Origin: Chrysomallon squamiferum
Lineage: Eukaryota > Animalia > Mollusca
Length of the DNA stretch: 64,000 nt
Direction: 5' to 3'
Assembly (NCBI GenBank): GCA_012295275.1
Contig: CM022665.1
Coordinates: 1,922,001-1,986,000, forward strand
Each line of letters begins with the position of its first letter. Position 1 is the first letter of the stretch. The notes below the pieces were generated by a model, which was not told the DNA's origin, made no database searches, and was given only the letters and a program-made list of their open reading frames with translations. A program made the position numbers and the translations under genes. Shown here in pieces: positions 13,801-16,800 of this stretch.

Positions 13801-16800
13801 GAAATATATACACTGTACTTAGAGACTCATTACACAATGAATTCTTGGATTAGGAGGCAAATCTAGGGATTATAGTATAAATTAACAAGCACATGCATGA
13901 ATTCTTGGTAAGCCATCATCGTTTTGCATTTCATGACCTTCACCAGGTAAAAGCCGAAGTTGTCTCCCCTGTCTCTATGGTCTAATCCCGTACTTGTGGA
14001 TGGGTTACACCTTGGCAACAATTCGATCCAATGTTTTACCTGGTGAAAGGCCGAGATTATCTGTCGATGACGACTTACGCCTCCTATTTTTGAACACTGT
14101 TACTATCTGCGACTTGCCTGCTCTGTTTGATTGGTCAATCATTGGTTGTACAATTCTTCGTCTGGCATTAATGAACCTGCAAAACAAAATCATTTCCAAA
14201 CCATTAACATAGAGAATGATATACAAAAAAAACAAAAAAAAAACAATATAATTAATTATAATACATCTAAAAATAAGAACAAAAAAACTAAATTCTACAA
14301 CAATGTTACAGCTACTCTTGAAGTATTATATGAAGAAGAATAATCATGAGGGAAAAAAAGAAAGAAAGAGTTGTCCAATTTCCAGTCATCGGTAAATTCT
14401 AAATGTTTTCCATAAATTTTAAAACTCTGTAAAATATTTCTTGAAAACAAATTCTATTAAACAACTCTGAAAGACATTAATATAGTTTTGATTAGTCAAA
14501 CTTACTTGCTGTTATGGCAAATATTAGTTATAAATATGAAACAAATTATCATGATAGTTCTTGGTTGAAACAATATTTAAAAAAAAAAAAAAAAAAAAAA
14601 AAAGAATTAAAAAAAAGGAGAAAGAAAGAAGAAAAAAGAGGTAATAATAATAATAAAAATATTTGTTTTGTAAAAAGAATAATATTTAGCATATAACAGA
14701 TATTATTGCAATACATATGTATGAATGGTGTAAAATAAAACACTTTTTGTTACATGTAAAAGGAGGGACAAATCATAACCGTTTTGATGTCAGATTCTTT
14801 GAATATAAACACAATGTGCAGTTCTGTGCTACAGTAAATAATACTGTGTTTCACAACATGTCTGTATATTATCATTCAGCATTCATGGTGGCCATTATGA
14901 TTATTTTGAGAAAAATACCATCATTTTTTTCTTTTCTATCTCATACCAAATATTGTATTCATTAGTAACGTAAGATTTAAAACTTATTCTGTTTTTTTTT
15001 TTTTTTTTTTTTAATTATCTGTGAATTTAGATTGTTTACTATGCGGACTGAAACATTTCCTTATTTATTTATTATTTCCATTTTTTTTTTTAATTTCTTA
15101 CTTTTTTAAGTACCAAAAAGAAATAGTTGCAAAACAGTGACAGTTTCTGAACAGACAGTAAGCATGAGACTCAAGTTAGAAACAGGTGTTTCCCCCACAT
15201 GGCAGGCAGAGTTTTCAAATGATACAAATACTAGATGGTTGAACTCTGGTGTGCGAGGTTGGCAGGTTGTGTCCAAGTAGTAAGAGGAAATGCTTTCTGG
15301 CAAACCCTATCACATATGAATGTAGTAAAAGAAAGCCAAATTTTCTAACTGTTCCTGCCAACAGCAGTAAAACTCCAACACAAATTTTCATTAACCACCA
15401 TTTTCTTGCCAGTTCTGTGTCATGTTTAGAACTTCTCTGTATTTAGAAGATAAAAAAAAAAAAAAAAAAAAAAAATTAAAAAACTCAGACCAAATGCTCA
15501 ACTGTTTTTATGAAGAAAATTTGTATTAATGTTTTGCTGTGTCAAGCTCAACATACATGTAGCCAATTAGCAGAGTTTGAAAAAAAAAGATTTATATTAA
15601 CATGTTAATGTCGGGTTAAATAATTATGTTTTTTTTTTTTTTTTCTCTGACACATGGGATGCAATTTAGAAAGAATAATAATAATAAATCGAGAATAACT
15701 GCAGAATTTAATTCAGATTGGGAACAGATTGGTTATGATTATTTTAGTAAAATGAATTTAGAAAAAGATTAAAAAGATTAGTTATTTGAAAGGTTAATAT
15801 TTCTTAGGTAAAGTATTTTATGTAAAATTTTAAAATGAAAATTATTTTGGTTTTATACAGGATGTCTGTGAAATAAAATGAATCATTAAGAAAAAGAAAA
15901 AAAAAAAAAAAAAAAAAAAAAAAGAAAAAGATTTAATAAATCTTCAAGACAGAACTTGGATTAAAAAGAAATTCACTCATATAAAGTTTGCAAAACTGAT
16001 TAAAGGGTAATTGGCAAAATATATTCAATGAATCATGCAGTTGTGGACTACAAGGAAATAAAAGTCAAGTTTTATTTAATTGAGCTTGAATATATAAGGG
16101 AAGTGTAAAGCCCAAGTGGGCCCAGTGCCAGTCTCATCATGAACTGATTGATTGCCCAACACCCAGGTTCGGCGCCAGCACAGCCCACAATTTGTGTCAG
16201 TTGCAACTGAGACGGACTGTAGCTCATTAGCAGGTCACAGGTTGACCTCTCAAAAGACATTTGGAACTGATGATTTGCTCAAATTACACCACAAGCTCCA
16301 GAGAGAGCCAAAATAGTTCTTAGCAAAAACACTTTGGAAAATTAAAATTACTTTTTAGCTCCGTCTGATTAATGGTAAGCATTGGAGAAAGTGATCCCTG
16401 GGACCTGGCAATTTCTTCTGGTATTCTTTTGAGCAAATTGTATCTTCATTCTCGTTAGCCCGGGGTCTAGCCTATTGGGTTACAATTTGCTGGCTTATTT
16501 CAGTTGATGCCTCCCTCACCTAACTGGCCATTCCCCAGCTCAGCAGACATTCCATGGGTAATGACACTGAGAGACTTTAGAGACAACAACTCATGATCAC
16601 TAACTCAACTTATTCTCGTTTTCCCACTTCAGAATTCCACAAGATTTTCAAATGGCAGTTTCTACCATGGAATTCACATCTTGTTCAATAAATTCTTACC
16701 GTAATCAAACTTTCCCCAAGGATCATGGGCAAAACTGCAAGGACTGCGGTGAACTCTCTAACATGGGAGACCAATAATTGAAATAAAGCTCTGGATTGAT

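What the first reader, a model, noticed from the sequence alone, without database searches (positions are those of the whole stretch)
13935..14052. Long RNA hairpin that buries an alternative splice donor of the Meis homeobox exon: candidate structural splice switch
Seen: in the pre-mRNA, GGCCUUUCACCAG|GUAAAA (14052-14034) pairs with UUUUACCUGGUGAAGGUC (13952-13935), giving 14 perfect bp, a 1-nt bulge and 4 more bp with a G-U. After a small internal loop, UCGAAUUGUU (14026-14017) pairs with GACAACUUCGG (13964-13954), again with G-U pairs that only work on the sense strand. The whole U1-binding site of the distal in-frame donor is inside the stem, and the in-frame stop is in the loop region. 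Established, from memory: an ultraconserved exon-intron hairpin has been proposed to control splicing of dipteran homothorax. Inference: folding, or ADAR editing of this duplex, selects among the short GC-donor isoform, the +26-aa isoform and a truncated read-through isoform lacking the activation domain. Whether this is homologous or convergent with the insect element is unknown.
Basis: partly seen in the sequence, partly recalled or inferred. Interest (0 to 1): 0.85.

Follow-up and report, generated by a model that had tools for sequence, protein, structure and literature searches.

The report
Double RNA lock on Meis donors
In the Meis developmental gene of a mollusc-like animal, the intron just after an ancient optional exon piece carries two stretches complementary to its two ordinary splice signals, which are predicted to fold back and hide both, likely steering splicing to the rare GC signal, the only one seen used in the few RNA samples available.

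Summary
The hairpin is real and larger than reported. It sits on exon 10/10' of a mollusc-like Meis gene (minus strand), a known, ancient alternative-donor event. The two helices rank 2 and 3 of 136 sense-strand helices in the window; the whole element folds at z -5.7 (antisense -2.8). Predicted opening costs are about 12 and 15 kcal/mol against 2.5-4.6 for the GC donor. RNA contigs of 2 of 3 RNA runs (one study, low depth) show only the GC-donor junction; no editing was seen. Best reading: a default lock on both GT donors. A regulated switch, ADAR editing and a truncated isoform are untested. No mollusc intron was reachable, so conservation and covariation are untested; the one fish-like locus that keeps 10' lacks the lock. 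Homology with the dipteran hth element is unlikely, as arthropods lost 10'. New variant of a known kind.

The parts
50518..50594 (-). Meis exon 9 (homeodomain, HPYP...QVNNW)
   Evidence: translation, boundaries read; an RNA contig of X4 runs from exon 10 into 27 letters that match its end (table 7)
14118..14176 (-). Meis exon 10 (59 nt, end of homeodomain)
   Evidence: spliced on both sides in X4
14112..14120 (-). proximal GC donor CAG|GCAAGT, predicted mostly accessible
   Evidence: joint to 12252 in X1 and X4; opening cost 2.5-4.6 kcal/mol
14040..14117 (-). exon 10' (78 nt, 26 codons), the alternative extension
   Evidence: peptide matches Lottia, Haliotis, hemichordate, vertebrate, nematode Meis; named in PMC3140891
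14073..14081 (-). middle GT donor GGC|GTAAGT (+13 codons), made by the Arg-Lys-Ser codons
   Evidence: in frame; same codon as the intermediate isoform of Saccoglossus and Ptychodera models; use in this animal not seen
14065..14078 (-). helix A, 5' arm (covers +1..+14 of the middle donor)
13908..13921 (-). helix A, 3' arm (intronic)
14034..14052 (-). helix B, 5' arm (covers -13..+6 of the distal donor)
14034..14042 (-). distal GT donor CAG|GTAAAA (+26 codons)
   Evidence: in frame; same place as the long Haliotis isoform; use in this animal not seen
13935..13952 (-). helix B, 3' arm (intronic)
14017..14026 (-). helix C, 5' arm (weaker, pair probability about 0.6)
13954..13964 (-). helix C, 3' arm
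13979..14011 (-). apical hairpin D (14011-14002 with 13989-13979), holds the in-frame TAA at 14007-14005
12172..12252 (-). Meis exon 11 (81 nt)
   Evidence: joints in X1 and X4, boundaries
10516..10856 (-). coding part of the last Meis exon (12b) with the stop
   Evidence: joint in X1 and X4; sequence

Best explanation
Two intronic stretches are complementary to the two in-frame GT donors of Meis exon 10' and are predicted to fold into nested helices that likely block U1 from both, so that the upstream GC donor, the only one seen used, is the default. Shown: the complementarity, the frames, use of the GC donor. Predicted: the fold, and that each helix locks one donor independently. Inferred: that the lock changes splicing; that the long (+26) isoform would leak through when U1 binds in the roughly 90-100 nt of transcription before the helix B partner is made; and that the element may have begun as an inverted copy of part of 10' of which only the donor-covering blocks were kept.
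For: Each helix lands on a donor defined independently by other animals' isoforms. They rank 2 and 3 by energy of 136 sense-strand helices of 14 bp or more within 250 nt in 64 kb. With the exon fixed and the next 144 intron bases shuffled, 38 of 5000 shuffles matched the middle-donor duplex and 0 of 5000 the distal one; 0 of 879 real tiles of the window did (the 23-mers were chosen after seeing the helices). Opening -3..+6 costs 11.6 and 15.4 kcal/mol, reached by 1 and 0 of 289 shuffles, while the GC donor's 2.5 is ordinary (202 of 289). Among 74 other genomic Meis exon-10 loci the highest donor opening cost was 11.0, and 9.4 among their 14 downstream donor-like sites. Sense strand favoured over antisense. 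Blocking one 3' arm frees only its own donor (15.4 to 1.9; 12.9 to 6.3). The 12-13-nt spacer between the helices matches at only 2-3 places, unlike the blocks. GC-donor joint in 2 of 3 RNA runs, no joint from 14079 or 14040, and the X1 unspliced contig crosses both GT donors in one piece. Precedent by minigene: Drosophila CG33298 (PMC2724269, passages).
Against: No conservation or covariation evidence: no mollusc intron could be fetched. The only other locus with 10' (L054, fish-like) leaves its distal donor open (3.2 kcal/mol), and vertebrates skip 10' almost always (27 of 27 human and 6 of 6 mouse ESTs, PMC3140891), so GC dominance does not need this lock; a human GC donor won over an intact GT donor in over 90% of transcripts (PMC3167603, abstract start and passages). 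In a crude U1 duplex model the GC donor (-7.4) is not weaker than the middle donor (-6.4; distal -8.3). Averaged over sliding 240-nt windows the donors are not unusually closed (ranks 102, 275 and 304 of 993), because many windows lack the partner arm. G-U versus A-C mismatches in a neutral alignment are 7 to 4, not significant. RNA data are contigs of one study at low depth and show presence, not absence. Abalone models do use the distal donor (3 of 4 species).
Confidence: 0.55

Rival explanations
1. Regulated switch: the helices are opened in some tissues or stages by slow transcription, an RNA-binding protein or ADAR editing, which would turn on the +13 or +26 isoform.
For: 10' is conserved as peptide across bilaterians and both long and short isoforms are modelled in 3 of 4 Haliotis species. 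The distal donor stays open (cost under 3.5) until the transcript reaches 13950 and closes by 13940, a kinetic window. The helices act independently, which would allow three outputs.
Against: No joint from either GT donor and no A-to-G difference in three RNA runs (low depth). No competing partner within about 2 kb comes within 8 kcal/mol of any arm's main partner.
Confidence: 0.2
2. No splicing role: a decaying inverted duplication of part of exon 10', or chance complementarity in a GC-richer patch, that happens to overlap the donors.
For: The arms are colinear with near-equal spacing, as an inverted copy would be. The first 140 intron bases are 44% G+C against 25% after exon 11. No conservation shown. 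G-U bias not significant.
Against: Near-perfect blocks exactly over both donors with an unrelated spacer; composition-keeping shuffles do not reach it; no second copy of the intronic part in the window, so no sign of a mobile element.
Confidence: 0.17
3. The hairpin slows or blocks removal of intron 10 altogether, as proposed for dipteran hth, giving retained-intron RNA that is degraded or makes a Meis ending at the TAA at 14007-14005 without its C-terminal region.
For: Unspliced contigs cross the hairpin in X1 (13824-14146, depth 3.9) and X2 (13699-14005). The hth precedent as summarised in PMC7145568 (passage).
Against: The GC donor is left open and is spliced. Unspliced pieces also lie deeper in intron 10 and in intron 11, as nascent RNA or DNA would give, and the runs were found by this very stretch.
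Confidence: 0.08

Closest known systems
Meis/hth exon 10/10' alternative donors (Irimia et al. 2011, PMC3140891; parts 1-5 of 8 read, supplements not available)
   Same: Same exon, GC proximal donor (46% of genes studied), 10' peptide, and a third donor inside 10' as in Saccoglossus, at the same Arg codon.
   Different: The main text holds no occurrence of 'secondary structure', 'hairpin', 'stem' or 'editing' and reports the middle donor only for Saccoglossus; it calls the function of 10' an open question.
Dipteran homothorax ultraconserved exon-intron stem-loop (Glazov et al. 2005, 2006; neither paper held; seen only through passages of PMC7145568 and PMC3862641)
   Same: Same gene family; a predicted stem around a donor that would block U1.
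   Different: Arthropods lost 10' (PMC3140891), so it cannot be the 10' donors; it is ultraconserved and tied to intron retention and to a competing downstream partner, neither shown here. Which hth junction carries it I could not read; my recollection, unverified, is one upstream of the homeobox.
Drosophila CG33298 donor-masking stem (Raker et al. 2009, PMC2724269, passages)
   Same: A box overlapping one of two alternative donors pairs with an intronic box (185 nt away there, about 90-160 here) and diverts splicing to the other donor; shown there by disrupting and compensatory mutations.
   Different: There the proximal donor alone is masked and the boxes are conserved in flies; here two downstream GT donors are each masked by a nested helix and the open donor is a GC site; untested.
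Human tau exon 10 donor stem-loop (as summarised in PMC2724269, passage)
   Same: Local stem masks a donor and lowers its use.
   Different: One short local stem on a cassette exon; here two 14-18-bp helices spanning 170 nt and alternative donors.

Membership tests
Meis exon 10/10' alternative-donor event | Meis (TALE) exon 10 with phase-1 proximal donor, often GC | tested here: met
Meis exon 10/10' alternative-donor event | conserved in-frame 10' coding extension ending at a GT donor | tested here: met
Meis exon 10/10' alternative-donor event | both donors used in transcripts of this animal | tested here: inconclusive
   only the GC joint seen, in 2 of 3 RNA runs, contigs only; long isoform in Haliotis models
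Donor-masking pre-mRNA stems (CG33298, tau exon 10 type) | stable helix overlapping the U1 site of an alternative donor | tested here: met
   predicted only:
Donor-masking pre-mRNA stems (CG33298, tau exon 10 type) | arms conserved, with compensatory changes, in relatives | not testable with these tools
   no mollusc intron reachable; absent in the fish-like locus L054
Donor-masking pre-mRNA stems (CG33298, tau exon 10 type) | disruption shifts splicing and compensation restores it | not testable with these tools
   needs a minigene
Dipteran hth ultraconserved element | orthologous junction and sequence | tested here: not met
Dipteran hth ultraconserved element | competing downstream partner giving an alternative structure | tested here: not met
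   none within 16200-12200; farther partners not searched
Dipteran hth ultraconserved element | high intron retention | tested here: inconclusive
   unspliced contigs at depth 2-5 in both introns 10 and 11
ADAR exon-intron editing duplex | A-to-G differences between RNA and DNA in the duplex | tested here: inconclusive
   none in contigs of depth 2-4; contigs drop rare variants
Rfam families (miRNA, cis-elements) | match at gathering score | tested here: not met
   0 in the window; one chance-level hit outside the element, E 4.2

The most novel reading that the evidence does not exclude
A modular two-helix RNA lock, conserved across molluscs, gates each of the two ancient GT donors of Meis exon 10' separately and is opened by transcription speed or editing, choosing between no insert, a basic half-insert and the full RRKSSS insert (an R-R-x-S kinase-type motif, recalled, that the middle donor cuts in two); it would be a second, independent invention of RNA-structure control of Meis/hth splicing beside the dipteran one.
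Probability: 0.18. Interest if true: 0.8.

Novelty: new variant of a known kind. Interest (0 to 1): 0.5.

Why it matters
Exon 10' is one of the oldest known alternative-splicing events in animals, yet it is rarely included and has been lost at least nine times; its function is an open question (PMC3140891). A structure that hides both of its GT donors gives a concrete, testable way for a GC donor to stay dominant while the 10' coding sequence, whose own Arg-Lys-Ser codons create a perfect GTAAGT, is kept. It also offers a simple experiment on 10' function: break one intronic arm and force one isoform. Without conservation or splicing assays it remains a strong prediction in one genome.

Tried and rejected
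Whole genome: none held. Pattern scans of prokaryote and viral collections: 0 matches. Reading intron conservation through off-frame ORFs: the antisense ORF gave 8 proteins, none reaching the 3' arms; the other frame gave 0 in both protein searches. Rfam: nothing. miRNA precursor: rejected, the element is 170 nt with a 12x13 internal loop and overlaps coding sequence. Mobile element: no second copy in the window. Assembly artefact: rejected, contigs of X3 (12857-14216) and X1 cross the element without a difference in it. Windowed accessibility did not single the donors out. Glazov 2005 and 2006 and a further hth isoform paper were not held; the supplements of PMC3140891 (exon tables) could not be seen and may bear on the Lottia donors. 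Literature searches listed no paper on an RNA structure at Meis exon 10'; the library lacks most subscription journals. Poly(A)-like hexamers in intron 10 (13475, 13184, 12336) are expected in AT-rich DNA and were not used.

Full report
Setting. The window holds the 3' part of a Meis gene on the minus strand: exon 9 at 50594-50518, a 36-kb intron, exon 10 at 14176-14118, exon 11 at 12252-12172 and the last exon from 10856. The best protein matches of the exon 10/10' peptide are Lottia (93%) and Haliotis (89%), and the last exon reads close to Haliotis by eye, so the animal is likely a mollusc, probably a gastropod. No whole genome is held.

The donors. Three phase-matched donors follow exon 10: CAG|GC at 14118/14117, GGC|GT at 14079/14078 (+39 nt) and CAG|GT at 14040/14039 (+78 nt). 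This is the known exon 10/10' event: a GC proximal donor in 46% of the genes studied, 10' rarely included in vertebrates, lost at least nine times including in arthropods, and a third donor 42 nt before the end of 10' in Saccoglossus (PMC3140891, parts 1-5 of 8 read). Gene models confirm the positions: Haliotis rufescens, rubra and asinina each have a 535-aa form with 10' and a 508-aa form without, H. cracherodii only the short one in this cluster, and none of the 6 members has the middle form. The middle form occurs in 2 of 14 Saccoglossus and 2 of 15 Ptychodera members and breaks at the same Arg codon as the window's middle donor. These are automatic models; their read support was not seen.

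The observation. The element is thus helix A (middle donor), a 12x13 internal loop, helix B (distal donor), a weaker helix C and an apical hairpin that holds the in-frame stop. It folds at -63.6 kcal/mol, z -5.66, 0 of 200 shuffles; the antisense strand gives -53.0, z -2.80, 1 of 200.

Chance. Of 136 uninterrupted helices of 14 bp or more (G-U allowed, span up to 250) on the sense strand of the window, B and A rank 2 and 3. With the exon fixed and 144 intron bases shuffled, 38 of 5000 reached the middle duplex, 0 of 5000 the distal, 0 both; 0 of 879 real tiles reached either (target 23-mers chosen after the helices were seen). Opening the nine donor bases costs 2.5, 11.6 and 15.4 kcal/mol (GC, middle, distal), reached by 202, 1 and 0 of 289 shuffles; with more flank 4.6, 12.7 and 15.4. 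In 74 other genomic Meis loci (those of the 104 distinct entries that were unspliced and long enough) the largest cost was 11.0 for exon-10 donors and 9.4 for 14 downstream donor-like sites. Against: averaged over sliding 240-nt windows the donors rank only 102 (middle), 275 (GC) and 304 (distal) of 993, since windows without the partner arm count too; G-U versus A-C mismatches are 7 to 4 in a neutral alignment.

RNA. Four runs were listed: three RNA runs of one study and one of unknown kind that behaves like DNA. X1 and X4 hold the joint from the GC donor to exon 11 (contig depth 12.3 and 15.7); X2 holds no spliced contig here. No joint from 14079 or 14040 was listed when the three RNA runs were laid on 12050-14330. 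X1 has an unspliced contig 13824-14146 (depth 3.9) that crosses both GT donors in one piece, X2 has 13699-14005; neither differs from the DNA. Other unspliced pieces lie in introns 10 and 11, so retention is not shown to be specific. Contigs show presence only; editing and minor isoforms are not excluded.

Conservation. Untested where it matters. There a weaker helix flanks the distal donor and leaves it open (3.2 kcal/mol), and the middle GT is absent. So the lock is not universal among genes with 10'. Scans of the other collections and three indirect protein searches gave nothing on the arms.

Mechanism. Best reading (0.55): a default lock. Once the polymerase has passed about 13940 helix B closes the distal donor (cost 2.7 to 10.8 between 13950 and 13940), and helix A closes later; each arm controls its own donor. 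U1 would then find only the GC site, which matches the RNA seen. The step from fold to splicing is inferred from precedent: in Drosophila CG33298 a stem over one of two donors diverts splicing, shown by compensatory mutation (PMC2724269, passages). Counterweight: GC donors can win without such a stem (PMC3167603, abstract start and passages; vertebrate Meis). A regulated switch (0.2) is possible through the kinetic window or editing but has no data, and no competing partner lies within 16200-12200. A neutral inverted copy (0.17) fits the colinear arms but not the unrelated spacer between two near-perfect blocks. Retention or truncation (0.08) is weakly supported.

Comparison. It works like known donor-masking stems; membership lacks the covariation and mutation tests. 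It is a member of the Meis 10/10' event by sequence. It is not the dipteran hth element: arthropods lack 10'; the Glazov papers were not held and were seen only through passages of PMC7145568 and PMC3862641. Nine searches listed no paper on a structure at Meis 10', and the main text of PMC3140891 has none; its supplements were not visible. No look-alike stretch was on record.

Verdict. Observation confirmed and extended; interpretation partly supported. A statistically strong, well-placed, two-donor RNA lock predicted in one genome, on an ancient and unexplained splicing event. New variant of a known kind; interest 0.5, up to 0.8 if conserved and regulated.

Noticed in passing
window 7120-7540, minus strand: Two long G-U-rich hairpins about 3 kb past the Meis stop (7515-7401, 16 bp; 7264-7141, 25 bp, the strongest helix of the sense strand); joint fold z -4.11, 0 of 100 shuffles. 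Possibly double-stranded 3' UTR; transcription not tested.
   Followed up: partly
L054, from about 630 to 800: Fish-like Meis1 with GC donor and 10'; a roughly 10-bp helix flanks the distal donor but leaves it in the loop. Read-through ORFs of several unnamed proteins (P0027, P0049, P0077, P0096) and P0105 look alike past the donor, so this intron start may be conserved in fishes.
   Followed up: partly
   Followed up: no
window 14061-14084, minus strand: The 10' peptide holds RRRKSSS, a basic cluster with an R-R-x-S kinase-type motif (recalled); the middle donor cuts between the Arg run and the Lys-Ser run.
   Followed up: no
L060 and L110, exon-10 donor: GC donors kept although no 10' peptide follows; 3 of 74 other genomic loci have GC.
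   Followed up: no
window 10880-11200: Degenerate AT-rich tandem-like repeat near the 3' end of intron 11, variable between the window and run X3.
   Followed up: no
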